A stretch of 64,000 nucleotides of DNA from a virus. Below are positions 1-61,300 of the stretch, in pieces. Positions within the stretch are counted from its first letter, which is position 1. The number at the start of each line of letters is the position of its first letter. Below the pieces are notes generated by a model. That model saw only the letters and a list, made by a program, of their open reading frames with translations. It was not told the DNA's origin and made no database searches. Both the position numbers and the translations under genes were made by a program. The DNA lies in IMG/VR virus record IMGVR_UViG_3300030107_002332; one strand, given 5' to 3'.

Positions 1-741
1 AACTCCATCATTATAGTACAACTTATGGAAAGTGTCAAAGGGATTTCTATAAAAAGTTGTCTTAAGAGTTTCTGTATCAAATACATGGAACCCTCTCTTA
101 GTACCATAATCATTCCAATACAACTGATAAGGATTACCAAGATAATATACGTTGTCTGTATTTGACTTCTGATGATAATGTCCTGAGAATACCTTCTTAA
201 ATTTACTGAATGGAGACACCTCCATACCAGCATCCATCACATGACCAGGATGAGCCTCAAAGCCGTTAAGCTCAAGATGGCCCATACAGACAGGAGCAGT
301 ACTGTCTGCGATGCTTCGGAAGGTTCTGTCGTAGTTGTCATCACATATCCAAGGAAGAAGTAGAATGTCAATACCACCAAAGTTACTGGTAGTAGGCTCT
401 TCAATGATATCCATGTTGTCGTATTCTCCCAATAGTTCTGTTGGGGAATTAATTCTAAGAGTATTTTTATAGTAGATATCATGGTTGCCTATTAATGTAG
501 TCATATGACAACCCAATTCTTTTACAGGGTCAAACCACATCTCCTTTGCCTCATCAAGAGACATGAAATTAATAAACCGTCTTCTATCAAAGGTATCACC
601 TAAATTTATAATGGTTTTAATCTTTGATGCTTTTAAAAACGGTACTACTATCTCACCATAAAACTTCTTATAATGAGAAATGAAATGTTGATTGTCATTC
701 CGTACACCGAAATGCTGATCTGTTATTAATAATATCTTCAT
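1..741 (-). CDS. g47: Recombination endonuclease subunit gp47 (Mre11/SbcD-like metallophosphoesterase); N-terminal part, runs off the window edge
   Basis: Not in the ORF track. Manual translation from the ATG at 739-741 gives [16 protein letters not shown]...NLGDTFDRR...[12 protein letters not shown]...FSGHYHQKS...[12 protein letters not shown], the metallophosphoesterase motifs of gp47. ATGA overlap with the pyrE stop; the frame is open to base 1. Confidence 0.93.
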
Positions 742-24001: not shown

Positions 24002-27000
24002 TTAAGCGAATGAGGAAATAGTCAAGTTAGTTACATCATTAGCACCAACGGTTTCTCCGACCTTGAAGAATCCATCAACATTATCAACGGTGACTGAAGT
24101 AGCACCAAGAGCAGTAATAACTCCAGTTGTACCAGAGGTTCCACCTGTTACAGTTGCACCAACTTCCATCGTTGTGATATCAGATAGAGCGAACGTAGCA
24201 TTAGTGAATACGGTAGAAGTATTAATCGTTGCGTTAGCAAAGATAGTAGCAATATCAACCGTTGCACCATTACCATGTATAGCAGATACAGGGAAGGATG
24301 CAGTGCTACCGTGAATAGCAGATACAGGAATTGTGGCACTATTACCATGAATTGCTGTAACATCAAAGGTAAGAGCAGCACCACCACCTCCACCAAGTTG
24401 TGCGTCAGCAACAGTAACTGTTTCATTAGCAATCCAAGTATCACCATCATTAACAACGGTAACTGTAGCAGCACCAGAACCATTAACTACAATAGTAAAG
24501 GTTGCATTCTGACCAGATGCTTGAGAAGCATAGTCAGTAGCAGCAATATTATATGTACCAGAACTTCTTGATGCGTCAGCAGCACCAATGTTACCTACAG
24601 TGTTAATACCAGAGGCATTAGCGTTAGTGATAGTCAAGACTTCAGATGCTGCATATCCAGAACCATCATCATTAATTGTAACTCCAGTAACAGCACCGTT
24701 AGCACCAACTGTTATATCAACAGTTCCACCAGTTCCAGATCCAGATGATGTAGTTGCAATAGCAGATCCAGCAGAGTATCCAGTACCAGCAGTAGCGATA
24801 GAACCAAGAGTCTTGGCACCAGTAGCATTTGCGTTAGTAATTGTGATTACTTCATCAGCAGCATAACCAGATCCATCATCATTAATAGTAACTCCAGATA
24901 CAACACCAGAACTTACAGTAACATCTACTGTCAATCCAGTTCCTGAACCAGCAGAAGTTGTTGCAATTCCAGATCCAGCAGCATAACCAGTACCACCTTG
25001 AGAAATAGATCCAAGTGTCTTAGCACCAGATGCATTAGCGTTCACAATAGTGATTGTGTCATCTACTGCGTATCCTGATCCTGCAGCATTTATAGCAGCA
25101 CCAGTTACAACACCATTAGATGTTGTGAGGTTAAGTGTTAATCCTGAACCTCCACCACCTGTAGTAGCGATTGCAGTTCCGTTGGCATATCCTGTACCAC
25201 CTACAAGGGTGTCAACAGTCGATGCACCACCTGCATTACTATTCGCAATAGTGATTGTCTCACCAATAGCATATCCAGATCCTGCAGCGTTTATAGCAAC
25301 GTTAGTGATTGCTCCATTTCCATCAACAGTAGTGTTAAGAGTTAATCCAGTTCCTGATCCAGATGAACTTGTTGCAACTCCAGTAGCAGCAGAGAATCCT
25401 CCAACACCACCTGATAGAGTACCCAAGTTAAGAGTATCAACACCACCAAGATTAGGGTTAGTAATTGTTAAAGTATCACCAATTAAGTATCCAGTACCAG
25501 CAGCATTTAATGCAAGACCAGTTATAATTCCATCAGCATTTACTGTAGTATCAACAGTTAATCCAGATCCAGTTCCACCTGTTGTAGCAACGTTTGTTGC
25601 TCCTGTGAATCCACCAACTCCACCAGCTGAAATAGATCCAAGTGTTACAACAGATCCAGGAGTAGGATCTCCAGATAAGTTAAGTGTTAATGTTGTTGCA
25701 GTAGCAAGGTTATTCAACATAGCACTAAGTTGTGCGTATGCATTATCAAGTTTTGCTTGAACTCTTGCTTCTGTATAATATTGATTAGTTCCTTCAGAAA
25801 GGTTAGTTGTAGACTTACTGGATAGATCTAAGTTAGCACCCGTTGCAGCAGCGACTCTTGCATTCGCTCTTGCATCTGTATAGTAAAGGTTAGATCCTTC
25901 TGATAGATCTCCAGTATCAGCAGCAGCAATACGTGCGTCTGCTCTTGCATCTGTAAAGAATAATTTACTTGATCCTTCAGTAATATTATCAGTATTAATA
26001 TCTGCCTGTGTTACAGATAGAGTACCACTACTATGTGTGATACCTGTGCCGTATGTAAAGTGTGTCCTTGTTCTGGCAGCAGTAGTAAAGAGATTTGTTG
26101 ATCCCTCAGTTATGTTATCAGAGTTAACGTCTGCCTGAGTAACAGATAGTGTGTATGTATTAGCAGCGTCATCATATACCTTAGTAACACCAGTACCAGC
26201 AATGATAACAGCATTAAGTCTGTCATCTACACGCTCGTTAGTGAAGTAAAGGTTAGTTGATCCTTCAGATAATGCATCAGTATCATGGTTTGCAATACTT
26301 GAAACTGTTCCAGTTACGTTACCAGTTACAGCACCAGTGATAGGACCAGCGAATCCAGTAGCAGTAAGGATTCCAGTATTTGAATTGAATGTTAAGTTTG
26401 TACCACTCTTAACTGCAAGAGAACCAGTCGCTGCAGTTGTGAATAGAACATTACATGAGGTGTCTGTTGACTCATCAGCAACGGTTACTGTAGCAGCAAG
26501 AGTTGCAGAATCAGCGTTACCTGTAAGATCACCAGTTACATCACCAGTCAAGGTACCAGTAATCGCTGTAATATTTGCAGCATCACCGTAAATATTTTGC
26601 CATCTGACTGAAGTAGTACCAAGATCATATGTACTATCAGCAGCAGGATTTAAGTTCTTAGCAGTTGATGTAGTTCCAACAATATTACCTGTTAGATCTC
26701 CAGCAACATTACCTGTTATATTACCAGTTACATTACCAGTTAGAGTTCCTGTAATAGCAGTGATGTCTGCAGCATCTGCGTAGAGCTTCTGCCAACGAAC
26801 TGTATTAGTACCAAGATCATATGAACTATCTGAAGCAGGATTAAGATCCTTAGCAGTAGAAGTAGCACCTGTAAGGTTACCAACTAAATCTGAAGTAATC
26901 TCATTAGCAGCAAAGTCACCAGATGCATCACGTATGACTAAGTTATTTGCAGCGTTTGTGCTTGAAGAAGCAACGTTAATTGTTGTGTTACCTGATACAC

Positions 27001-46362: not shown

Positions 46363-46370
46363 TATTTATA
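46363..46370 (-). promoter_or_regulatory. T4-type late promoter TATAAATA
   Basis: Exact consensus overlapping the giant gene's stop, 21 nt upstream of the ATG at 46342. Confidence 0.75.
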
Positions 46371-49300
46371 AAGGTGTCTCAGGGTCAACTGGTTCTTCAC
46401 CATATAGACTTAGATCAGGAGCAGTCCAATCATCAGGAACTGATGTTTCAACTGCGATAGTTGGATTCGCATATCCAGATCCAGGATTACTAACTTCAAC
46501 ACCACCAACTCCAACAAGAGCTCGTATAGCACCCTCAAATCCAGATATAGAGTCAATTCTTACAGTTGGTCTGGTAGTATATCCAGATCCACCTGAGGTA
46601 ACTTGTACATCCTTAAGTGTGCCAGAAGTTAGATTTGCGTTTGCAATCGCACCTGAACCAAATACAGATCCAAGATAATCGAAGGTAATTAGTGAGTTAG
46701 AGGATTCAATAACAGCAACTTCTCTATCTGAAGTCTCACCTTGGATGTCAATAAAGTCACCAGGTTCGACTGGAGGTACAACCTCAGCAGCGTCAACGTC
46801 TGCTTCAGAACCAACGTAGGAGAATGCAACGAATGTTGATCCCACACGAGGAATTTCAGAGAATAGAATTCTTGAACCAACAATCTCAAATCCAATTCCA
46901 GGTTCCTGTATAACACCATTCAGTGAAACGATGATGTTATTTTCTGGACGTATGGTAGAAGATTGTACACCCTCAGTTAGCGTTAGTGAGTAGAATACGT
47001 CATTACGCTTGAGGTTAAATGACTGACGTAAGGAGTCGAACTCGAATGAAATATCATCCAACTGTCTCAACTTACCTACGTAGAATCCTGTGAATGATGC
47101 TCCTAAATCTGGTGCCTCTTGGAATTGAATCTCATCAGAGAACGCTGTATATGCGTTAGATGCACCTGGAGGTTGTAGAATACCATTAATGAATACAAGT
47201 AGATGTCCTGCAGGATCTGGTAGATATGGAGTACCATTTTGCTGAGTTAACTTGAAGTTTGTAGTAGTTCCATCAAATCCCTTGAATGAACGCTTAACAC
47301 GTGCCTTGAGACTTACTATATCTTCAATAACTGAAGCATATCCGTCTGGACCTTTAATAGAATCCTTAGGATCAAAGGTACCTTTGATACTTGAAAGATA
47401 AAGTCTTCTATTAACACCAACTGTTCTAATGTCCTGAACAACTGCAGCTGCAGCACCAGCAGTAGTAACCTTAGTGTTAATACTTGCGTAACCAACTGGG
47501 TTAGATAAACCAGCACCATAGTCACCTACAACATCACCGTTAGTAATGGTTCCTTGATACTCTTGCATATAGATGAAACTATTATCAAGATCAACTGCAG
47601 TAATAATACCGTAAGTATTCTGGTCTTGTATACCAGATACAACCTTATAAAGTCTGTTACCAACAGTGAAGTTGTTAAGACCACTAAGGACTGTAACACC
47701 AAGTCTTATGTAACCATTAGATGCGATTCTTGCACCAACACCTATATCAAGTCCAGCATACTTGACAACATCAAGATACTGTCTGGAAGATTCAGGATAA
47801 ACAACAGCAGTAGTTTCAAATGTACCTGTAAGAGTTGCGGTATCAACTGTTAGAGTACCACCAGTATTATCTAATGTAGCAGCCTCTCTTCTAAGGAATC
47901 CAGTAGGAGTTGCGGTAGCACCTGAAGTATATCCCTTAAATGGAACATTATCTTCAAATTCACCCTTAAGGTCGATAACATGAATTCTACTTTCTATAGC
48001 ACTAATCTGAGCAGTTGTGGAGTTTTCAGCACCAACAACATTATCAGTGATAGCCCAAGGTCCAGCAGTTACCTTAACATCAAGATACTTGTAGTTGGCA
48101 TCTGACCAGAAACCATATACAACACCAGTGATTGAAGGTGCACCTTGCTTGGCAACAGTCTCACCCATAGTGTAAGGACCATCAGTGATATCACCATCAA
48201 TTCTAAATCTTTGGAACACCTGTACGATCTTACCTTCATTTAAGGTAAGATTTTCAAGTTCACCGTATGTGTTACTTAATAAACCATACATGTAATCAGC
48301 ATTCTGTATACCACCACCAACACCTTGAGGAATTGATCTTGTTCCATATGTCTTAGTTGGTAGAGAAACACCATTTACACTAATGTAATTAGTATAAGAT
48401 GAATCAACAGTTAATTGCTGACGAATAATATCGAGACAGTATCTAACTATAGCACTTGCTGAATCTGCATCATACCATGCAGCAGCTTCATCATAGAATG
48501 CTTTATAGAAACCAGAATTAGGTGATGGAGAAGTTAGACCATTATTAAGTGCCTGAGACATATAAGTCTCCATCAAATCTAAAGCATAATTCTTAATATT
48601 ATACTCAGCGTCAGAATAGAAGATCTTAGCATCTTGAGATTGATATGGATCTAAGGCATTCTTATTGAGTTTAGCACCCCAGACATAAAGTCCATCACTA
48701 TTATTACCAGCGTATGTTTGAGCACCAGAGGCATTCTTAACATAAACTTGTGCTCTCATTTCTGCGAAACCGAAGGAGAATGTTAGAGTAATATATGCTC
48801 TATACCATCCATCTCCAAGAGGTACAACACCGTATGCATCACCAGTTACACCATTTTGAGGTGTGAATAATGTTCCAACTACACCTGTGTCAAGTGCAAC
48901 ATCAAAGAATGCATTCTGAACAGCAGCAGTGCCATAGTTCAGTGATAACATTACACGAGCGTTATCATATTCACCCTTCTTAAGGAAGACGGAATATGTG
49001 TATTGCTGTGTAGGAGATGTTCCAGAAGCACCTTCGTCAAATCTTTGATTGTTTGCGTCCCACTTGATAGTATCATCATCAAATGTATCATAAGCAGATA
49101 GATTATAAACTCTATGAATTGTATGATCTGCGTTAGTAGAAGAAGCAATTAATTTATCAGCAGTTAATGTTCCATCAGGAGCAAGTAGAGCATCATCAGT
49201 AAATGAAACCTCAGTACCAGTCCAATTAATTGAGAATTGCTCTGGGTTAGTGAGTAGGTTAGTACCAGCAAGTTGACCACTTACATTAGAAGTGATAAGT

Positions 49301-52300
49301 CTTGCACTACCAAGTGTCTTAACATTAGAAACACTATCGTACCACTTGTAACTATTACCAATACCAGCAGGATCAATAGTTGCAGTTGCACCAGAATCGT
49401 TACCTGTTAATACATCATAATCCTTCCATTCTGTACCAGTAACAGTACTGCATACGAAGAATTCTGTATCGATATTATATTCACGAACTATTGCAGTACC
49501 ACCACCATCAGATGTAACTGTTTCACCAACTTTAAAGTTACCAGTTATATCACCAATAGCAATATTACGAGCAACTGAATTCTTAGTCATATCAGTTGTG
49601 ATAATATCATGAACGGTATCATCTACAAGTTGATCAATGAATGTATTATAAGTCCAAGCACCAGCACCAAACTGTGAATTAACTAGAGTTGTAATCTCCT
49701 CTTTATAGTAATTTCTGTTGTAAAGTAAGTTCTTAGCAGCACCCCGTCCCTCCATCTTAGCAGGAGCAAGAATATCAACTGCTAAATCAGTTAATTCTTC
49801 TAATCTACGAACTACATCTTCAATTGCTACTGGAGATAAAGAATCTGTATAAGGAGCTTCATCTGTATGTTGAGCAACATATTGTTGAGCAGTTGAAGTT
49901 CCATTAAGAGCAACTAAACGATTTCTAAGTGCATGCTCACCAATAATCTTAATTTGTTCAATACCATAAACTGTTGCTAATAGTTCAGTTTCAACATGAT
50001 TTAAGTTTCCTGCGGAAGTTAAGTAGTATTCCATAGCAGCAACGGTACTATTATTACCACCTGTCTGAAGGTCAGAAATAATACCAAGAATGATTAACTT
50101 AATATCTCTTTGACACTTACCTTCACCTAAAGCACCCTCTGGATAAGTATGTGCATTATAGTTTACACTGTTAAGTACATAAGTGAACTCAGCAGTTATT
50201 AATCCTGTAATCTCCTCTGCAATATATTTTCTATTGAAGTAAAGTCTATCAGCAGCGATAGCATAATCATTATCTGTAGGAGCAATAATATCATTAACAG
50301 ATGTAACTAAAGTATCGATAGCAGACTTAACGTTTGCACATCCACCACCATCTTGAGTAATACCCCAATCACCAACAATAATATCATCAGTATTATCATA
50401 AGTTAAATCACCAGTAATTGCTTGCTTCATGTAATGAGCAAGACGATTATGTGCATAAACTGACTGGAATACTTGTAATCTGATGTGTAATAGAACATCA
50501 TTAGTACCAAGATAGAACTTACCAACATTAGTACTATTCAAGTTACCACCATCTTCAATATCTTTACAGAACTCTTCAAGGAGTAATGTTAAGTCAGTCT
50601 TACATTGTAAAGTACCATCTTGAGTACCACCTACGTTACGAGGCATTTCAAGTACAAGATCTGGATATAATGTAAGCATATCGTGAGATGTCTTATCTAC
50701 GATAGGTCCAGTATTTGCACGAATTAATGCAGCAGCATCTCTAAATCTGTTGCGTGTAGTCTCATCAATTTGATTAGTAACAATGATATCATTAGTAGCA
50801 TCATGATAAGAAATTGGGAATGGAACCTCATAGTATGCACTAACTTTACCACCAAGGAAATCATGCTTAGGAGTTAACTTAGTAACAGTTGCAAGATGAT
50901 CTACAGCAGGTGATAGATTTGCTTGAGTGACAGTATCAACCAAGATATCCATCAAGTTATCAATAGTTGTGTATACATCAGTACAATCTGCCCAACTGTA
51001 ATCTAATACTGAAACAGCATTATTTGCAATAGAAACTAACTGATGAGTATTCTTAACTTTCTTAACAGCACCATACTTAGCAGAAACAAATGTATGTGCA
51101 GACTGTGGTAAGAAGGCTACAGCGTTAGTTGTAGCACTTACGAATGTATGAGTGTAATCTCCACCAGAACTAATTACTGCTCTCTTGATTCCATTAGCAG
51201 TTGCAGACTGGAATGCATGAGACATAACGTTAGTTGATGGTACTGCATCAAGAACCTGAACGTCAAATGTATTTGTAGTAACTCCAGAAATAGTAACCCA
51301 CTTACCACTAACAGGATCACTCTTTCTTGGATAAGTCTTAGTTACAGTATTACCATCAAGAGCACAAGTAAATGATAGTGAATTATCAGCGATCTTGACT
51401 TTCTCACCGTTAACGAATCCATGATTAGCAACTGTGATTGTCATAACACCTGTAGTTGGGTTATATGCAGCATTAGTTGCTGTAAAGTCGCTATTAGCAC
51501 TAACGAATGTGTGAGCAGTTGTGTTAGAAGATGTACCAACATTAACTGTAATTGTGTTACCTGTTACAGCAGTAATGTTAACAGCATCGTTGTATGCTGG
51601 ATCATCAGCAGATGCACCACCCTGACCGTTTGCACGAGGATAAGTATGGTTAGAACCATGACTATCTTGAGCACAAGTAAAGGTTAATGAATTATTAGCA
51701 ATTCTTATTGATGTACCAACTGTAAGATTATGGTCACCAATTGTTAGAACTAATAAACCAGAAGCAGGAGTAAAGCTTGCAGCAGATACTTCATGACCGA
51801 TAATAGGTGAAGAACCAACATTAACTGTAATTACACCAGTCTTTCTTCTAAGTCCCTTTGTAGCAAATGACTTGAATGTATGAGTTGTTGTATCAGAAGA
51901 AATACCAAAGTTAACATCAAATGTATTAGTTGCAACGTTGGATATTTGCATCCACTTATTCTGATAAGGATCAGTTGCTCTTGGATATGAATGATCTGTT
52001 TGATTTCCATCTAAAGAACATGTCATAGTTAAAGCATTATCAACAATCATTACCCAATCACCGTTAGACCATCCATGATTAGCAAGAGTGATTGTTGCAG
52101 CACCTGTTGCTGGAGTGTATGAAACGTTAGTTGGTGTATGATGTGTATGTCCTACATGCTTAACAGGAATAGACTTAAGATTACCATAAGGATCTGTTGA
52201 ACGAGGATAAGTCTTATTAGAAGATCCTCCATCCATTGTGCAATTAAATGTTAATCCATTATTTGCAACTGTAATACTTGATCCAACACTGATACCATGA

Positions 52301-55300
52301 CCACTACCAATAGTTAGAGTCATATCACCAGTATAAGCATCATAAGTTGCTGCAGAAGGTGTAAATGTCTGGTTAGTACCAGCAGGATTTACATTAACTG
52401 TAATTGTTCCAGTTTGTCTCTTAACACCACCAGAAGTAGCAGATACAAATGTATGAGCAGTTATGTTAGAAGAAATACCAACATTAACTTCAAATGTATC
52501 AGCAGTGATAGCAAAGATATCCAACCATCTATTATAAGTTGGATCAGTTACTCTTGGATAAGCATGGTTAGAACCATTACTGTCTTGAGCACAAGTAAAG
52601 GTTATTGCATCAGCATCAAACTTAACTCTATCACCAGCAACTAATCCATGTGAAGCAGATGTAATTCTTAAAATACCAGTTGTAGGTTCATAGTTAGCAG
52701 TTGAAGGAGTAAGACTTGAAGTACCAACAGAAGCAACAGGTATCGCTTTTGCAGAGAACTCATCTTTATTAGTACGAGGATAAGTCTTATTAGCTTGATT
52801 GTTATCCATTGCACAAGTGAATGTCAATGAATTATCATCAATAGTAATACTATCATCGTCTGTTATATCATGTGATCCAATAGTTAATACTAAGTTACCA
52901 GTAGCAGGATCATATGTTGCAGCAGTTGGAGTATATGGTTGATCAATAGTATCACCAAGAGACTTACCAATATCAACAGTAAATGTATTTGTTGTTGCCT
53001 TTCTTACTCTTAGAGCAGAAGTATAAGCAGGATCTGTGACACGAGGATATGCATGATCTGTTCTCTTACCATCGATATGACATCTGAAGGTTAATGAACC
53101 AGCATCAAGTTTAATTGCATCACCCATCTTATGAATACCATTTGCCTTAGCAGATACAAATGTATGGGTATAGTCACCACCAGTACTTACTACAGATCTG
53201 GTAATACATCCAGTAGTAGCAGATACAAATGCGTGTGTTGTAGTATTAGTTGGGGATGTTCCTTGTAGAACATTGATAGTAAATGTATTTGTTGTTACAG
53301 CAGTAATTGGAACAAATCTGTTACTAATTGGGTCTGTAGATCTTGGATAAGCATGGTTTGTTGCATTACTATCCTCAGCACAAGTGAATGTTACTCCACC
53401 ATCAGCAATCTTAATATGCTCTCCAACCTTGAATCCATGATTATTAACAGTCAATACCATGTTACCAGTGGATGCTGTATATGAAACAGTTGATGGAGTA
53501 TAAGTGTTATTTGCGTCTATAAATGTATGATCGTAGTTACCACCAACAATTAGACCACCAGTCTTAGCAGATACAAATGCGTGTGTTGTAGTATTAGAAG
53601 AAGTATTAACATTCAGGGTAATAGTTCCATCCTGAACCTTGATACCATTAGATGTAGCACTTACATAAGTGTGTGCAAAATCACCAAATCCAGTAATACC
53701 AACATTAACATCAAATGTGTTAGTTGTGGAAGCAACAATAGGAGTCCATTGGTTAGCAACTGGGTCGGTAGCACGAGGATAAGTATGGTTTGTTGCATTA
53801 CTATCTCTTGTGCAAGTAAAGGTTAATGAATCAGCATCAAACTTAACTTGACTATTTGCCTTCATAACACCATTAGTTGTGGCAGATATGAACGCATGAG
53901 TTGATTGATCATTTGCAACACCAATATTAACATCGAATGTATTGGTTGTTACATTTTGAACAGTCAACCACTTGAGGTATGAAGGATCAGTAGCACGAGG
54001 ATATGAATGTTGTGATTCATGATTATCCTTATTGCAACTGAATGTTAAAGCACCTTCTTTAATTAAAATTCTATCTCCATTAGTATATCCATGACTTGAT
54101 TTTGTCAAAGTCAGAACACCTGTTGCTGGTACATATACAGCACCAGTTGGTGTAATCTCTGAAGCAGCAGTCAAACCATGACCATTGCTAGTGATTTGTA
54201 GAACACCTGTAGTAGGAGCATAAGTTGCACCTGTAGCAGTCTTATTGGAAGTACCAACAGCAGAGATCTCGATAGGAGCGTCATATGCTCTATCTCTCTT
54301 TTGCTTGATGCAGTTTGTAACAGCAGATACAAATGCATGAGTAGAAGTATTAGTAGAAGGTATAGTCTGTAATACTTGTACTGTAAATGTGTTTGTAGTT
54401 ACAGCAGAAACTTTCAACCACTTACCGCTAACTGGATCAGTTGATCTTGGGTAAGTATGGTTAGTTTGGTTATTATCTAACTGACATGTAAATGTAAGTG
54501 AATTATCATCTATCTTAATCCAATCACCAACTCTAACACCGTGAGAGTTAACTGTGAATACTAAGAGACCTGTTGTACCACTATATGTCGCAGTAGATGG
54601 TGTGAACTCATCTATAAATGGTCTTGGATAAGAGTGGTTAGATGCATTGCTATCTTCAGCACATGTGAATGTTAATGCTCTATCAACTAATCTAACTGTT
54701 TGACCAACGTTTAAATTATGTGTTCCAACTGTCAATACTAAGTTACCATTTGCAGGAGTATATGCTGCATTGGTCATATCATGCTTCACAGTAGGTGACT
54801 TACCTACATCAATACTAATAGATCCATCTTGCTTAACGATACCATTAGGATATGCAGACTTAAATGTATGAGCAGACTTATCTGGAGATACACCAACATT
54901 AACAGTAAATGTCTTATCTGTTAGAGAATTAATTCTCAACCATCTTCTATAGAATGGATCTGTAGATCTTGGATAAGCATGATCAGTAGCGTTATTATCT
55001 TTCTCACATGTAAATGTTAGAGACTTCTCAGCAATTCTGATCTTATCACCAACAGAATAACCGTGCTTATCAGATAGAACACTGTTATTTCTTGCACTTA
55101 CGAATGTATGAGTATAGTCACCACCAGTTGTCACAACTGCTCTTGTTACACAGTTAGCAGCAGCAGAAACGAAACTATGAGTTGTAGTATTTGTTGAAGG
55201 TACTACATCAAGAACTTGGATAGTGAATGTATTTGTAGTTACTGATTGAATATCAATAAACTTACCGCTAATTGGGTCAGTAGTTCTTGGATAGGTATGA

Positions 55301-58300
55301 TTAGTAGCATTGTTATCCTTACCACATGTAAATGTTAATGAGTTGTCAGCAATCTTAATCTTCTGTCCAGCTAACATTCCATGACCTGCAACAGTAAATG
55401 CTAATAAACCGTTAGTTGGGTTGTAAGTAACAGAAGTTGGAGTTAATGTTCCTGCTTTTGGTACAAATGTATGAGTACCAGCAGTTGCATCATTAGCAGT
55501 TCCAACATTGACTGTAATTGATGTTGAGGTTACAGCAGTAATTGTTGTTGCAGCATCATATACAGGGTCAGTAGTACGAGGATATTTGTGCTCAGTAGCA
55601 TTACTATCCTTAGTACATGTGAATGTTAAGGATGCAGGTTCAAATCTAACAGATGTACCAACAGTCAAACTATGACTACCGATAGTCATAACCATATCAC
55701 CTGTAGTAGGAGTATAGGTGACTGCTGATGGGTTAAAGGATACTAAAGGTGATGCACCAACATTAACATCAAATGTATTAGTTGTTACATTTGCAATGTT
55801 TATAAAGTCACCACTTAGAGGATCAGATGATCTTGGATAAGGGTGAAGAGTAGCATTATCATCCATATCACAAGTAAATGTGATTGCACCATCTTCAATC
55901 TTAACCTTATCACCAAGAACCATTCCATGATTAGGAACAGTTAATGTCATTATACCTGTTCTTGCAACATATGAAGCAAGTGTAGGAGTAAGGTTAGTAC
56001 CAGAAGTAATTGTTAAATCGCCTGTTGTAGGAGTATAACTTGCATTAGTTGCTGTACTATGAACTCCATCACTTACAATCTCAACTGAATCATTATAGAT
56101 TGGATCTGTTGTTCTTGGATAAGTCTTATACTCAGTAGTACCACCCATAGAGCACAAATACTTCAGAGAGTTATTTGCAATCTTAACATTGGTTCCTACT
56201 TCTAAACTATGATCTCCAATACCTAACTTCAACCAACCCGTCTCAGGATCATAAGTAGAGGATGTTGGAGTGAAACTCTTAATTGGTGATGGACCAACAT
56301 TAACATTAAATGTATTAGTTGTTACACCAGAGACTTCTAAGTATCCAGAACTTGCTTCGTCGGATATTCTGGGATAGGTGTGTTCAGACCTATCTTGGTC
56401 CATACTACACGTAAAAGTGAGTGAGTCATCAACAAGTTTGATTCTATCGCCATTTGAAAGTCCATGACTATTGCTCGTAATAGTTAATACACCAGTATTC
56501 GCTACGTATGCTGCATTAGACGCTGTAAGAGACGAGGCACCATTAATACCATGAGAAGACTTGGTTAATGTTAATTCACCTGTTGCAGGGTCATATACTG
56601 CTGATGTAGGAGTAATGGAAGTAAGTGAATTTGTTGTGGAATCAGTGATAGTAGTATCAGTTGTCTGAGTTAAACCATGATCACCTTGAACTTCCCAAAG
56701 AGTGTTGGTTCCAATGTACTGAACCATTTCCTGAGTCTTCTTAAATGCCCAAAGACTTTCAGTAACTTCACTCTTAATTTCTTTTAATTGGATAGGATTA
56801 GCAGTTCTATCAACATAGAATGCAGATGCATCCCAGATATGACTGTTACTACCGTTGCGAATATCATCTACAACACTCTTCAATACATCAACAATATCAT
56901 CAGCACAGTTAATAGATCCACCCTTAACAGTGAAGTTAGGGAATCTCTTCTTCATTAACCATACAACTTCTTGAGCAATAAAGTCTAAGTTTGCAAGTAC
57001 TAAATCGCCAGCGTTGATATATCTCTGAGTATTCTTATTAAATCCATTGTTGGCAATACCAACATTAACAGTAAGAGTTGTCCCTGAAACCGCAGTGATA
57101 GCAAGGGTTGTGTCGTATGCAGGGTCAGTTACTCTTGGATATGTATGAGAGGTTTGATGATTATCCTTAGAACAAGTGAAGGATAACTTATTAGCACCAA
57201 TCTTAAGAGTATCACTTGTTGTGAAACTATGAGAACCAATAGTTAATACCAAGTCTCCTGTATTAGGATCATATGTTGCATCAGTTACATCCTTCTGTAC
57301 ACTATTAGCAGTTATTGTAATAGCATTAACTGCAGTACTACCATTATAGATGTGCTTACCAGCAACATCTCTTACAGTTGCAAGAATAGCATCATTATTG
57401 AAGAATTCTCCTTCAGTAAATCCTTCTACACCAGACCAATCATCAATATAATTAACACCATCATTACCATCACAGTGTAATAGTAGTTTTGTATTAGCAT
57501 CACCTTGGAATATACCAGCAACAGGAGTAAATGCACCAGTATAACGGTTAGTTGTAGAAACTCTTACCTCATCAACATGACCAACAAATCCATTAGCACC
57601 ATTCCAATCAGCACCAATTCTTATTGGTTTAGCAACATAGGTTGTACTGTCAGTACCAGTTCCAGCTTCAACACCATTAATGTAGATCTTACCAGTTGTG
57701 CTGGACTTAACATATGCAATATGAGTCCATGTATTAGCAGAAATCGTTGTTGCACCTGAAGTTACAAGATCAGAATTATTAACATTTACACGAACTTGAC
57801 CTGCCTCTAAGTATAATCTGAAGGCAACTTCATTAGCACTACTTGCTCTTGTATCGAATATATCAGCAGTACCACTTACTGAAGCAGTAGCAGGACGGAT
57901 ATACATCTCAATAGTAAATGCACCAGATCCAAATGCTATTTCATCAGTAGATGCATTAACAATATAATCAGCAGCAGCAAATTCTAAAGATGCTGTTCCA
58001 AACTTCTTCTGTGCGGTATCGATAGCAGCAGCATTTTCAAAGGTAAAGTCAAAGTAATCTTCACCATTTGCTTTACATCTACCAATCTTACCAAGATAAA
58101 CAATATTACGTGCTTGATTAAATCCAATAACTTCAGCTTTAGTATCTCTGGTTCTAATTACTTGTCCAGTATTAAAGAATCCATCACCAATTCTATTAGT
58201 GAAACTTAATTTTCTAACTCTTCCATCTTCTCCAGCAATAAAATCACCATTACTATTACCATATTCAATCTTATAATTACGGATATTCTCATTTTCTACA

Positions 58301-61300
58301 AGAGTTCCTACTGCATTATCATAAGGAATAGTATAGTTATTGATACGCTCATTAGAAGGGAATTTAGAATCAAATGCAGTAGCATTGTCTGTAAAGTCAA
58401 CAATACTAATCTGAGACTTAGAAATATCGTCTAATACAACGTTTGGATAAGTCTGAGAGGTAATTCTGTTGAATAGTAGACCAAAGAATGATGAACCTTC
58501 AGATATATTAACTTGACCAATAAATTCATTAGTTGTAGGATCTTGATATGCTGCAGTTGCAGTAACAGTAGCAACAACACCAGATGATGCACCAAGAATA
58601 ACATCATTTAATTGAATATCAAATAAACCAGGAGTTGATTGATAAGTACCAGCAGTCTTACTTAGGGTTAATGTATTAGTAACGCTAATGTCTGTACCGT
58701 AAATTGGAGTATTCTCTTGTACAGATTGAGCAGTAGTACCAAGTTGTCCTCTGGTAACACCTATAGTTGTAGATGATGATCCATCAGTAATACTATCAAC
58801 TCTGAATATTTCAGAACCAAACTGATAATTCTTAGTAGCAGTAAATGTTCCAGCTGGAACAGGACCAGGATCGCCAGTTAGAGGAACTACTTCAAATGAT
58901 ACAGTAGAAAGACCAATAGTATAACGAACCTTAGCTACTGGTGTTTCAGCACCAGATTCAAGGTTAATTTGTTCAACCTTTGCAGTATCTCCAGTTAAGT
59001 TAGTGATCTGCTCACCAAATGTGAATAGACCAATATTTGATACAGCAGTATTTGTTGCTAAGTTAGCAGAGAATCCAGTAGCACTAACAGTACATAATTC
59101 ACCAACAATAAAGGTTCCTTCAATAATATAACCATTAATTGTAGTACCAACAACTGTTGTTACAGTTAACTTTGCACCAGATGATATACCAGTTAATACG
59201 TTACCTAATGATGGGTAAATACCACTCTGATTAGTAAATGTAAGTGCAACAGTAGACTTCTGAGAAATTGTTATGTTTGCATACTTAACACTTGCTGGAG
59301 GTTGTGGTGGTTCGGAGAATACAATAGAGTCTTGCTGAATACTAAATGAAGTCTTAGGATTCTGTACAACACCATTCAATACAATCATTAACTGGTTTGC
59401 GTTTGCAACAACATTACCACCATCAACAGTTAGAGGGAATGAGATTCTCTCACCGTCAAATAAGTTAGAAATATCATCGACACGTTGTACAACAGAGGTC
59501 AAAATGTTCTCTGAAGATGTCAGTCTCTTCTGCCTGAATAGAACTTCAGTATTATTGAAGTCAGAGTAAATTGGTTCAACAAGAGCAAAGTTTTGAATAT
59601 TAGGAACGATTGATTCCTGAGCAAGTTCAACAGACTTAGTTAACTGGAAGAATGTCTCTTTGTTAGGAACAAATCCATACTCATTAAGGTTTAATTCACC
59701 AAATACTTTAAATGATGCAGGGTGAACGTTCTTAATAAGGATCTCTTTCCAATCGCTGATAGAAACAGCAGATTTAACAGCATAAGAGAAGTCCTGATAG
59801 TAGTAAGAGTCTTGAATCTTTTGAATAATTTCGGAAGGTTTACCAACATCATCGATAAACTGACCTGTTGTTTTGGTAATAGAACCAATTTCAAGAACAC
59901 CTTTAGCGATCTTCAGATCACTGATAGTACCTGAAGACTTAGAAATAACACCAGTAACTTTTTCATTTTCTGTAAATGAACCAGTGTAATCAACAATCTT
60001 AAGAATTCGAGGTCCAACCTGCCAACCAGAGTTAGTAGAAACATAACCTTGAGCAGTAGCATTTTCAAGTGAATCACCTTGATATATCAATTCTCCTTCT
60101 AAGAAAGTAGAAGTGATAACGTTAGCAGTAGCAGCACCACCAAATGATTCAGTTAATACACTTTGACGACCTTCACCAGCGTTAACGAAGGAAAGAGCAT
60201 CACCAAGAGCAGCGTTAGATGCAGTAATAGCAAGTTTTAACTGATCTGGTTCCAATGAGTTTGCTGTACCAGCAATAGCAAAGTAAGTAGTAGAAGCATT
60301 TAATCTACCAGTTGCACCAGCAGCAAGTGGGAAATCAGCACCATCTCCAGTATCAGTTACAGTAACTGTTACTTCAGAACCATTTACAATACCATGAGGA
60401 TAAGCAAATTGAAGTAATCCTAAGTCAAGGTTTACAACATAGTTGAATGAAGACTTAAGATTAATAGTTGGTGTAGATGAATAACCAGCACCAGGATCTT
60501 TAACAAAGATTTGATCTAATCGACCATTCTTGATAGTTGCTTCAGCAACAGCACCAGTACCACCACCACCTGTAATTACAACAGCAGGAGGTAAGGAATA
60601 ACCAGAACCTGGGTCAGTAACTGTAATACTTGAAAGTATACTTGTAGATGTTAACTGAGCGTTAATCGGGAAGGTAATCTCAGGACGTAAAGTATAGTCA
60701 TGAGGATAATCATATCCAAAGTTATTATTCTTAAGTTTCTTGATTTTTCCGACATTTGTACCCTTAGTAAAGATAGATGCCCCTGTACCAGCAGAAGGAA
60801 TAACAACTACTAATTCAGCACCAGATCCAGTTAAACCAGATCCAAGAATACCTGAAATTGAGTTAATATCAATAGTTGCAGTAGTATATCCTTTACCTGG
60901 ATCAATAACATCAACTTTTTGAATTTGACCTGGTATAGTAGTACCTTCATCATCAGTGCCATCAGCAACAGTAATAGAAACTAATCCACCTTCTCCATCA
61001 CCAGCAATAGGTACGTTATTGTATTCTCCAACAGCATATTCAGTACCTGGAGCATTAATTTGAACTCTTTCAATCTTTCTTGTTGATACAATACCTGTAA
61101 CAACTGGTAATTTAGTATAGAATCCACCAGAGTTAACAATACGGATATTATTAATAGAACCAACAGCTTTTAGTGAACTTGTACTATAACTTGTCCTACT
61201 TACATCTGCAGAACCTTCTGGCTCATTTTGTAGAGGGAATTTGAATATATCAGGTCCAGTAGTAATAGTCTGACCAGCAGTAGAACTAATTTGGAATGTA

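What the first reader, a model, noticed from the sequence alone, without database searches (positions are those of the whole stretch)
51030..57300. About 19 Cys/His-bearing modules arranged by recursive insertion in the giant protein
Seen: modules are often interrupted by a whole copy and then resume. Example 1: an outer N-half ...ITSNGHGLTA (about 54170-54250), a complete inner module, then the outer C-half NSQVKFDADSLTFTC...YPR (about 53640-53860). Example 2: NHSYPRPFI, an inner module, then RDRAYDAPIEISAVG (about 54270-54620). Orphan closing strands (GGDYTHTFVSA, HAFVSA) are stacked after inner modules. Each module keeps HG, C, H-x-YPR and H-x-F, enough His/Cys for a metal site. Inference: a branched, tree-like multivalent adhesin, possibly metal-loaded (compare the proposed iron binding by phage fibres in the ocean).
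Basis: partly seen in the sequence, partly recalled or inferred. Interest (0 to 1): 0.7.

Follow-up and report, generated by a model that had tools for sequence, protein, structure and literature searches.

The report
Nineteen nested barrels in cyanophage baseplate giant
A roughly 7,900-residue baseplate protein of a marine T4-like cyanophage carries 19 copies of one small beta-barrel that are inserted inside one another like Russian dolls, not strung in a row. Related phages gain and lose whole barrels at the same insertion points.

Summary
Window 51028-57291 (minus strand, aa 2207-4294 of the giant ORF) holds 19 copies of a ~95-aa module. Each has one invariant Cys, an invariant YPR and a His in the turn after strand 2.

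AlphaFold models (pLDDT 94.8 and 82) and structure searches show a six-stranded beta-barrel. It resembles the E1 FCCH domain and the phage endosialidase barrel.

Only 9 modules are contiguous. The others are interrupted at four sites: after the HG turn, after YPR, in the beta6/beta7 hairpin, and before the last H-x-F strand. They are closed later in last-in-first-out order. A strict stack parser reads the array with no defects, six levels deep from M2, against a null mean of 22.6 defects.

Orthologues at 52-63% identity lack or gain whole modules at three of the four sites. Single solved barrels align to the predicted split halves.

Metal binding is untested, because I had no model coordinates. 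Cys is kept in 99.85% of modules and two His in 93-99%, but the H-x-YPR His in only 63%.

The scan had already noted nesting on this stretch, and also in another protein of this window built from a different module. The closest known analogue is the Si3 insertion of cyanobacterial RNA polymerase.

The parts
46366..64000 (-). Giant virion protein gene, cut at its 5' end by the window. 5,877 codons lie in the window. The full gene is about 7,938 codons in a 93%-identical relative. It matches phrog_701/18802 'virion structural protein' and sits in the gp7 position, upstream of gp9- and gp10-like baseplate genes.
51028..57291 (-). The nested array: 19 barrel modules, M1-M19 (aa 2207-4294)
57043..57291 (-). 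M1 (aa 2207-2289), strands A, B and C only. No certain closing strand was found, so it may be the root of the tree.
56614..57042 (-). Helical block (aa 2290-2432) between M1 and M2; absent from the orthologue L016
56527..56613 (-). M2 opening hairpin (aa 2433-2461, ending HGINGASSL). It resumes at aa 3595-3659 (nt 52933-53127) and is probably closed by THQLVSI at aa 4282-4294 (nt 51028-51066).
   Evidence: inferred from the parse and the orthologue alignment; not folded
56272..56526 (-). M3 strands A, B and C (aa 2462-2546). Return strand GGDYTHTFVSA at aa 3576-3594 (nt 53128-53184).
   Evidence: parse
56056..56271 (-). M4 (type I), A, B and beta6 (aa 2547-2618). Beta7 at aa 3020-3045 (nt 54775-54852). 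Return strand GGNYDHTFIDA at aa 3455-3470 (nt 53500-53547).
55990..56055 (-). M5 opening hairpin (aa 2619-2640). It resumes with HGYS plus B, C and D at aa 2945-3019 (nt 54853-55077), after 304 residues holding M6-M8.
   Evidence: pLDDT 81-85; nine solved barrels align to model range 75/76..486/487
55735..55989 (-). M6 strands A, B and C (aa 2641-2725). Return strand GGDYTHTFVSA at aa 2928-2944 (nt 55078-55128), after M7 and M8.
   Evidence: 15 solved barrels align to model range 96-98..408; return strand kept in L013 and L023, which have one inner module fewer
55129..55734 (-). M7 (aa 2726-2820) and M8 (aa 2821-2927), contiguous leaf modules inside M6
   Evidence: ranges 182..272/278 and 280..386
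54604..54774 (-). M9 (type I), A and B (aa 3046-3102). Beta6 at aa 3204-3223 (nt 54241-54300). Beta7 plus own D at aa 3425-3454 (nt 53548-53637).
   Evidence: (L023 has this module contiguous, without M10)
54301..54603 (-). M10 (aa 3103-3203), a leaf inserted directly after YPR of M9
53638..54240 (-). M11, split: A at aa 3224-3252, then B, C and D at aa 3351-3424. It encloses leaf M12 (aa 3253-3350, nt 53860-54153).
   Evidence: pLDDT 94.8, pTM 0.85; single barrels align to range 1..208-211; BFVD homologue, TMq 0.92
53185..53499 (-). M13 (aa 3471-3575), a contiguous leaf. Orthologues carry an extra module inserted after its YPR (L005/L021/L022) or between its C and D strands (L023).
52363..52932 (-). 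M14 (type I: A, B and beta6 at aa 3660-3733; beta7 at aa 3832-3849), enclosing leaf M15 (aa 3734-3831). Return strand LPQSAHTFVSA at aa 4266-4281 (nt 51067-51114).
   Evidence: (L016 and L034 lack M15 and have M14 contiguous)
51793..52362 (-). M16 (type I: aa 3850-3924, plus beta7 at aa 4023-4039), enclosing leaf M17 (aa 3925-4022). Return strand GGDYTHTFVSA at aa 4248-4265 (nt 51115-51168).
51169..51792 (-). M18 (aa 4040-4142) and M19 (aa 4143-4247), contiguous leaves before the final stack of return strands

Best explanation
The region encodes the middle part of a giant virion protein of a T4-like cyanomyovirus. The protein sits in the gp7 position of the baseplate gene block.

Its repeating unit is a ~95-residue closed beta-barrel of the FCCH / endosialidase-barrel type. 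The strands can be grouped as:
- A: beta1-beta2 plus a His-Gly turn.
- B: beta3-beta5, with ..TFTC..D..H.YPR.
- C: beta6-beta7, ..VTTNTF.VNVG.
- D: beta8, ..TH.FVSA.

The 19 copies are not beads on a string. New copies sit inside loops of older copies at four permissive sites: A|B, after YPR, within the beta6/beta7 hairpin, and C|D. The interrupted parent barrel is completed later by the rest of its strands. Often this is a single H-x-F return strand, so return strands pile up after the innermost modules in last-in-first-out order.

The result is a tree six levels deep from M2, seven if M1 is the root. It has 9 contiguous leaf barrels. Nine barrels (M2-M6, M9, M11, M14, M16) are split and closed later, and M1 lacks a certain closing strand. 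Each split parent is joined to the barrels inside it by two polypeptide links, one going out and one returning.

The architecture is shown: by prediction, by structure alignment, by the sequence grammar, and by gain or loss of modules in orthologues.

The function is inferred. The double links should give a stiffer, more breakage-tolerant and branched display of many barrels at the baseplate periphery. The barrels most likely make weak multivalent contacts with host surface glycans. Insertion or loss of whole modules would tune reach and avidity between related phages.

The invariant Cys and the two near-invariant His may form a small metal or structural site that helps hold the return strand. 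This is unproven.

The confidence given (0.8) applies to the nested architecture. For the glycan-contact function I would give about 0.4.
For: **Module and fold**
- Twelve contiguous copies align with invariant G, T, H, C, D, Y, P, R and D.
- Model 1 has pLDDT 94.8 and pTM 0.85.
- The inner module matches the phi92 endosialidase barrel (Z 8.2, rmsd 1.9 A, 77 aligned, 21% identity), E1 FCCH domains (Z 7.9, 7.4, 6.4), and phage FCWL1 and N4 virion barrels.
- Sub-threshold Pfam PF12195 hit, E 0.012.
- The nearest named ESM Atlas cluster carries PF16190, in viruses.

**Nesting, by structure**
- Contiguous 77-113-residue solved barrels align with 70-90 residues to model-1 range 1..208-211, which spans the inner module.
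- In model 2 (pLDDT 82), nine chains align to 75/76..486/487 and fifteen to 96-98..408. These are the boundaries I predicted for split M5 and for M6 plus its return strand.
- An independent public prediction of a homologue superposes on the whole nested pair with TMq 0.92; one annotated 'baseplate wedge initiator' gives TMq 0.84.

**Nesting, by evolution**
- L016 and L034 lack M15 and have M14 contiguous.
- L023 lacks M10 and has M9 contiguous.
- L005, L021 and L022 have an extra module after YPR of M13.
- L023 has an extra module between C and D of M13.
- L013 and L023 have one inner module fewer but keep M6's return strand.

**Nesting, by grammar**
- 19 A and 19 B tokens; the orphan halves form a valid bracket word.
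- A strict stack parse gives 0 defects at depth 6, against a null mean of 22.6, with 0 of 300 null trials as good.
- All 52 complete homologues have fewer defects than their own null mean, and 9 parse perfectly. Three of those read ABABABAB-DDDD.

**Context**
- phrog_701, upstream of gp9- and gp10-like baseplate genes.
- The module occurs in 372 cyanophage records and in 730 representative protein clusters.

**Function leads**
- The endosialidase barrel binds polysialic acid and discriminates between hosts (PMC13564897).
- FCCH barrels face outward on siphovirus tail tubes (PMC13576161).
Against: - I never saw model coordinates. Strand complementation rests on pLDDT, pTM, DSSP and the first and last aligned residues reported by the aligner, not on measured contacts.
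- The two largest brackets were not folded: M2 (about 1,130 residues between its halves) and M3. They rest only on the parse and on parsimony.
- M1 has no certain closing strand. The parser's D calls for M1 (HIWDAS) and M2 (HDFLGG) are probably false positives. I replaced M2's with THQLVSI on the basis of an orthologue alignment.
- The homologues used in the statistics are related to one another, so the counts are not independent.
- Many homologues show parse defects, which may come from missed tokens.
- Nothing tests glycan binding, metal binding or the position in the virion.
- The structural Z-scores (at most 8.2) lie in the range the tool calls common arrangements.
Confidence: 0.8

Rival explanations
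1. Linear beads on a string. On this view the orphan hairpins, the B-first modules and the extra H-x-F strands are decayed fragments, linkers or a separate cap sheet, and every barrel folds only from contiguous sequence.
For: - Most tandem repeat proteins are linear.
- 9 of the 19 modules are contiguous.
- pTM of the five-module model is only 0.58.
- Many homologues give imperfect parses.
Against: - The orphan halves are conserved in orthologues at about 60% identity and carry the family's invariant residues.
- They are predicted with pLDDT 81-96.
- Solved single barrels align across them.
- The number of modules lacking a D strand matches the number of surplus D strands, in valid last-in-first-out order.
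- Orthologues have the parent module contiguous exactly where the inner one is missing.
Confidence: 0.06
2. Inter-chain complementation. On this view the protein is an intertwined oligomer, as T4 fibres are trimers, and the orphan halves are completed by another subunit and not by the same chain.
For: Many phage fibre proteins are trimeric and strand-swapped (general knowledge). The monomer predictions used here cannot see oligomers.
Against: - Every opening half has exactly one matching closing half within the same chain, in nested order.
- The monomer models are confident.
- The gene sits in the gp7 position, and a homologue is annotated as baseplate wedge initiator. T4 gp7 is present as a single copy per wedge (my own knowledge).
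Confidence: 0.05
3. The nesting is real, but the main role of the modules is to bind a metal (Zn, Fe or Cu) through Cys/His. The array would then be a metal-loaded structure, or a metal store, in an ocean virus.
For: - Across 1,342 modules the single Cys is kept in 99.85%, the turn His in 92.7% and the return-strand His in 98.7%.
- An unpaired, invariant Cys in an extracellular virion protein is unusual.
- The Cys ends beta4 and the H-x-YPR His starts beta5 of one tight hairpin (DSSP).
Against: - The H-x-YPR His is Lys in 25% of modules and in 4 of the 19 here.
- No co-loss signal links the His residues.
- The pattern is not the HxH motif of T4 gp37.
- No spatial clustering could be measured.
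- The strand pattern L-x-F-x-C suggests the Cys points into the core, so it could be purely structural.
Confidence: 0.25

Closest known systems
Si3 insertion of cyanobacterial RNA polymerase beta' (eight SBHM domains; PDB 8emb; PMC10895346)
   Same: One small beta-rich domain is repeated within a single chain and is not in simple tandem. SBHM-2 to -5 are built from distant segments with other copies between them. This is the same architectural principle, and it occurs in the host lineage of these phages.
   Different: - The fold family differs or is unproven (Foldseek probability 0.04).
- Eight domains against 19.
- It is an enzyme insertion, not a virion protein.
- Neither four defined insertion sites, nor stacked single return strands, nor copy-number polymorphism between relatives are reported in the passages of the paper I read.
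Beta-barrel domain of phage endosialidases (phi92 4hiz, K1F; Pfam PF12195)
   Same: - Best structural match: Z 8.2, rmsd 1.9 A, 77 aligned, 21% identity.
- Weak Pfam hit.
- It belongs to a phage host-recognition protein, and its sequence range (residues 256-340 of a 658-residue chain) lies inside the catalytic domain.
- It binds glycan and affects host discrimination (PMC13564897).
   Different: - It is a single copy inserted in a beta-propeller, not self-nested.
- The C, YPR and H-x-F signature was not tested in that family.
- The Pfam threshold is not reached.
E1 FCCH-type barrels used as outward decorations of phage tail tubes (Pfam PF16190; PMC13576161)
   Same: - Six-stranded closed antiparallel barrel, Z 6.4-7.9.
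- PF16190 is precomputed on some homologues.
- The nearest named ESM Atlas cluster carries it.
- It faces outward on virions.
   Different: One copy per tail-tube subunit, fused end to end. No nesting.
Self-nested barrel rod at the C-terminus of the 2,495-aa fibre protein of the same window (earlier scan note e1-5876531)
   Same: Same phage and same principle: barrels inserted one inside the next, each finished by a short return strand.
   Different: - A different module (..GSGLTVD..INAAGSGY.. with ..VSAIHG return strands).
- My module HMMs do not hit it.
- It is a simple chain of six, not a branched tree using four sites.
T4 gp37 long-tail-fibre tip with HxH iron sites ('Ferrojan Horse' proposal)
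   Same: A His-bearing repeat in a host-contact protein of a T4-like phage.
   Different: There is no HxH motif here. The unit is a monomeric barrel, not a trimeric intertwined needle, and it carries a Cys. Metal binding is untested.

Membership tests
FCCH / endosialidase-type six-stranded beta-barrel (PF16190, PF12195) | Closed six-stranded antiparallel barrel superposable on solved members | tested here: met
   4hiz_A Z 8.2, rmsd 1.9 A, 77 aligned; 4p22_B Z 7.9; 9mc4_A Z 7.4; 2v31 Z 6.4. One search gives the same families for model 2. The Z values lie in the range the tool calls 'common arrangement', so this shows fold-level similarity only.
FCCH / endosialidase-type six-stranded beta-barrel (PF16190, PF12195) | Sequence match above Pfam's curated threshold | tested here: not met
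   no Pfam family on the array. PF12195 best E 0.012 in 2 of 12 modules, and PF16190 not hit. PF16190 is precomputed on only a few homologues.
Recursively nested repeat-domain architecture (Si3/SBHM type) | Copies of one domain built from distant chain segments, with other copies inserted between them | tested here: met
   models and alignment ranges; orthologue presence or absence; defect-free stack parse.
Recursively nested repeat-domain architecture (Si3/SBHM type) | Homology to the SBHM fold itself | tested here: inconclusive
   8emb_F listed by Foldseek with probability 0.04. It is not among the VIA rows.
T4 gp37-type iron-binding fibre | Repeated HxH motifs | tested here: not met
   the conserved motifs are H-G, H-x-Y-P-R and H-x-F. 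No conserved HxH appears in the module consensus.
T4 gp37-type iron-binding fibre | Bound metal coordinated by the conserved His | not testable with these tools
   No coordinates and no metal-aware prediction were available.
gp7-like baseplate wedge protein of T4-like phages | Position in the baseplate gene block, next to gp9- and gp10-like genes | tested here: met
   the downstream genes match phrog_677 (connector), phrog_708 and phrog_438 (wedge subunits); homologues are annotated gp7 or 'baseplate wedge initiator'.
gp7-like baseplate wedge protein of T4-like phages | Sequence or fold homology of the non-repeat core to T4 gp7 | not tested
   Only PHROG names were obtained (phrog_2885 'baseplate wedge subunit'). 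No comparison with T4 gp7 itself was made.

The most novel reading that the evidence does not exclude
The whole 19-barrel array is one self-similar protein tree, rooted in M1 or M2. It would fold from the leaves inward. Every barrel would be clasped shut by a Cys-His-His metal ion that pins its return strand. Each virion would then carry on the order of a hundred structural metal ions in this protein alone (19 sites times about six copies, if gp7-like), and module insertion would be a general, heritable way for cyanophages to grow rigid branched host-contact structures.
Probability: 0.15. Interest if true: 0.85.

Novelty: new variant of a known kind. Interest (0 to 1): 0.72.

Why it matters
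Repeat proteins are almost always linear strings, and deep self-insertion of one domain is documented in very few cases. This is a natural family with a simple four-site insertion grammar and nesting to depth 6-8. It spans 730 representative protein clusters and 372 cyanophage records. Module gain and loss is visible between related phages.

That makes three general questions directly testable:
- How discontinuous domains fold.
- Which loops tolerate insertion.
- How doubly linked domains change stiffness.

It also points to the giant baseplate proteins as a fast-evolving host-contact surface of abundant ocean cyanophages. The invariant Cys/His set gives a concrete, cheap test of whether marine phage particles carry structural metal.

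Tried and rejected
- **Pfam on the whole protein:** only Laminin_G_3 outside the array.
- **PDB sequence search with the module profile:** nothing meaningful; the best hit, E 0.1, was a chance match.
- **Foldseek against the PDB:** no hit with E below 1e-3.
- **Stacked GGDYTHTFVSA strands:** I first read them as part of a module subtype ('IIb'). I dropped that reading after the 96-98..408 alignment ranges, the L023 insertion between C and D and the last-in-first-out parse.
- **Co-loss statistics for a metal site:** only D43-H49 co-vary (odds ratio 10.9). H21 and H86 are too conserved to be informative.
- **Sub-HMM token balance on 120 homologues:** noisy, because opening hairpins are missed. 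It improved after rebuilding the HMMs.
- **Close relatives L001-L003:** no indels, so uninformative about module gain or loss.
- **The window's own genome:** not held, so the full gene length was taken from a relative's contig.
- **Literature searches:** no prior description of this nesting in cyanophage proteins was found. The library is incomplete, so this is weak evidence of novelty.
- **Model files:** not exposed to scripts, so no contact or distance could be measured.

Full report
**1. What is there**

The finding lies inside a single minus-strand ORF that runs from 46366 to the window's end. The ORF is open at its 5' end. In a 93%-identical environmental relative, the same gene spans contig positions 6690-30506, about 7,938 codons. 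The extra N-terminal 1,835 residues contain none of the modules.

PHROG profiles call the protein a 'virion structural protein' (phrog_701 and phrog_18802). The next genes downstream are gp9-like (phrog_677) and baseplate wedge subunits (phrog_708, phrog_438). Homologues in cultured cyanophages are annotated gp7 or 'baseplate wedge initiator'. The phage is a T4-like cyanomyovirus: tblastn finds the module in 372 phage records, all from Synechococcus or Prochlorococcus phages or marine viruses, and all below 60% identity.

**2. The module**

Aa 2207-4294 contain 19 YPR motifs and 19 Cys-bearing strands. Twelve contiguous copies align over about 98 columns with invariant G12, T17, H21, C40, D43, Y51, P52, R53 and D56.

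I divided the unit into four blocks:
- A: beta1, beta2 and the His turn.
- B: GD.IKI..SLTFTC..D..T.H.YPR.
- C: .DP....W..I..VTTNTF.VNVG.
- D: ...TH.FVSA.

A 'type I' flavour has H-S/N/D instead of H-G, and ITAV..G.TITVNVG in block C.

Over 1,342 near-complete modules from relatives, conservation is as follows:

| Residue | Kept |
|---|---|
| Cys (C40) | 99.85% |
| P52 | 99.7% |
| G12 | 99.4% |
| D-strand His (H86) | 98.7% |
| Turn His (H21) | 92.7% |
| H-x-YPR His (H49) | 63% (Lys in 25%) |

H49 co-varies strongly with D43 (odds ratio 10.9).

**3. The fold**

No Pfam family and no PDB sequence match covers the array.

An AlphaFold model of aa 3220-3430 was built on 46 segments of the same architecture from other viral contigs. 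It has pLDDT 94.8 and pTM 0.85.

A search of 48,161 solved chains places the inner module with these structures:
- The beta-barrel domain of phi92 endosialidase: Z 8.2, rmsd 1.9 A, 77 aligned, 21% identity.
- E1 FCCH domains: Z 7.9, 7.4 and 6.4.
- Phage FCWL1 and N4 virion proteins.
- The FNR / riboflavin-synthase / EF-Tu domain 2 class of six-stranded barrels.

Weak sequence signals agree. Pfam PF12195 (endosialidase barrel) scores E 0.012 in two modules. The nearest named ESM Atlas cluster carries PF16190 in viruses, and PF16190 is precomputed on a few homologues.

**4. Nesting: sequence grammar**

HMMs for A and B find 19 of each. Three A blocks have no B directly after them (aa 2433, 2619, 3224) and three B blocks have no A directly before them (aa 2954, 3354, 3596). 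Their order is a valid bracket word.

Four type I modules stop after beta6. They resume later with ..G.I.V/L/D.V/G.. after one or more complete modules. Several modules end ..VNVG.SP...F and run straight into the next A, while surplus H-x-F strands pile up later.

I treated A as push, B as 'must extend the top of the stack' and D as pop. On that rule the window's token string parses with 0 violations, nothing left over, and depth 6. When the D strands are redistributed at random, the mean is 22.6 defects and none of 300 trials does as well.

The resulting tree (with two probable false D calls corrected by hand) is:
- M2 encloses M3 (at the A|B site) and M14.
- M3 encloses M4 and M13.
- M4 encloses M5 and M9.
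- M5 encloses M6.
- M6 encloses M7 and M8.
- M9 encloses M10 and M11.
- M11 encloses M12.
- M14 encloses M15 and M16.
- M16 encloses M17, M18 and M19.

M1 may enclose everything. Nine modules are contiguous leaves.

Among 52 complete-looking homologues, all have fewer defects than their own null mean and nine parse perfectly. Three proteins read ABABABAB followed by DDDD, and one reaches depth 8. These proteins are related to one another, so the counts are descriptive, not independent tests.

**5. Nesting: structure**

I could not read coordinates, so I used indirect measures.

In model 1 the outer halves (residues 1-30 and 132-211) show the same strand series as the inner contiguous module, at pLDDT 88-98. 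The pTM of 0.85 indicates one rigid body. Several contiguous solved barrels of 77-113 residues align with 70-90 residues to model range 1..208-211, which spans the inner domain. Examples are aEF1-alpha domain 2, a phage tail-tube decoration and siderophore-reductase barrels.

A second model covers aa 2541-3048 (five modules, 23-row alignment) and has pLDDT 82 and pTM 0.58. The orphan hairpin at aa 2619-2640 has pLDDT 81-85. In this model:
- Nine solved single barrels align to 75/76..486/487. This is the predicted split M5, across 304 inserted residues.
- Fifteen align to 96-98..408. This is M6's A-B-C plus the GGDYTHTFVSA strand that follows M7 and M8.
- M7 and M8 appear as contiguous units.

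A public BFVD prediction of a homologue superposes on the whole nested pair at TMq 0.92, rmsd 2.1 A.

**6. Nesting: evolution**

Pairwise alignment with orthologous arrays at 52-63% identity shows whole-module differences exactly at the junctions:
- L016 and L034 lack M15 and have a contiguous type I module in place of M14 (..LTITAVSAQG....KTITINVG..).
- L023 lacks M10 and reads YPR-LTDP....IKAVG straight through.
- L005, L021 and L022 carry an extra module right after YPR of M13.
- L023 carries an extra type I module between ..VNVGTSP and T.TTAH.FVSA of M13.
- L013 and L023 have one inner module fewer inside M6 but keep its return strand.
- L013 has a canonical THTFVSS where the window has THQLVSI. 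This identifies a third return strand at the end of the array.

The A[ABCD]BCD unit occurs in 66 distinct segments among 79 related loci. Brackets holding two or three modules recur.

**7. What is shown and what is inferred**

Shown:
- The module, its fold class and its family-wide distribution.
- The four insertion sites.
- The last-in-first-out grammar.
- Gain and loss of modules at three of the four sites.

Supported by prediction only: physical completion of split barrels M5, M6 and M11.

Inferred from the parse alone: closure of M2, M3, M4, M14 and M16 over 400-1,900 residues.

Inferred function: an outward-facing, multivalent host-contact array on the baseplate. The nearest solved barrel binds polysialic acid and is a host-discrimination hotspot (PMC13564897). 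FCCH barrels decorate the outside of siphovirus tails (PMC13576161). The double links between parent and child should stiffen the array.

Metal binding remains open. The conserved Cys and two His allow a site, but H49 is dispensable and the motif is unlike the HxH motif of T4 gp37.

**8. Comparison and novelty**

The closest known architecture is the Si3 insertion of cyanobacterial RNA polymerase, where four of eight SBHM domains are assembled from distant segments (PMC10895346).

It had also followed up a nested barrel rod built from a different module in the 2,495-aa fibre protein of this window (e1-5876531; its sequence was read).

My literature searches found no description of this architecture in cyanophage proteins.

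I rate it a new variant of a known kind. It is larger and deeper than Si3, uses four defined sites and single return strands, occurs in a virion protein, and differs in copy number between related phages.

Noticed in passing
window 63909-64000 and beyond; L002 plus L084: The ATG at 63909 is not the true start. The frame is open to the window's end, and in a 93%-identical relative the gene is about 7,938 codons, preceded by a 677-aa ORF. This is among the largest phage genes.
   Followed up: partly
window 56614-57042 (aa 2290-2432) and about 50900-51020 (aa 4295 onward): Helical blocks flank the array, each with a Cys-bearing helix (..CADDIVDVL.., ..ADCTDVYTTIDNL..). The first block is absent from orthologue L016. 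One homologue (P0010) carries a precomputed phycobilisome-protein Pfam hit (PF00502).
   Followed up: no
window 24002-25741 (-): The C-terminus of the 2,495-aa protein has a different repeated module (..GSGLTVD..INAAGSGY..) followed by stacked ..VSAIHG.. strands. This is a second, unrelated nested array in the same phage, already followed up by the scan.
   Followed up: partly
giant protein aa ~940-1330 and the last ~100 aa (window ~46366-46700 and ~59900-61100): Repeated ..PG.GY.. / ..GGSGYT.. short motifs lie at both ends of the giant protein. They match phrog_460 ('head closure Hc2') and resemble the motif in the 2,495-aa fibre.
   Followed up: no
window ~57550-57950 (aa 1988-2119) and ~62900-63200: Two Laminin_G_3 / concanavalin-like lectin domains (Pfam E 2e-25), one of them directly upstream of the barrel array. 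They fit a carbohydrate-contact role for this part of the protein.
   Followed up: no
module columns 43 and 49 (for example aa 3292/3298 in M12): Asp43 and His49 co-vary very strongly across 1,342 modules (odds ratio 10.9, p 1.6e-45). When His is replaced by Lys, the Asp is often lost. The cause is unexplained; it may be a direct side-chain pair.
   Followed up: partly
L063, L062, L027 (related viral contigs): Some relatives end their arrays with five or six stacked H-x-F strands, which implies even deeper C|D nesting than in this window.
   Followed up: no
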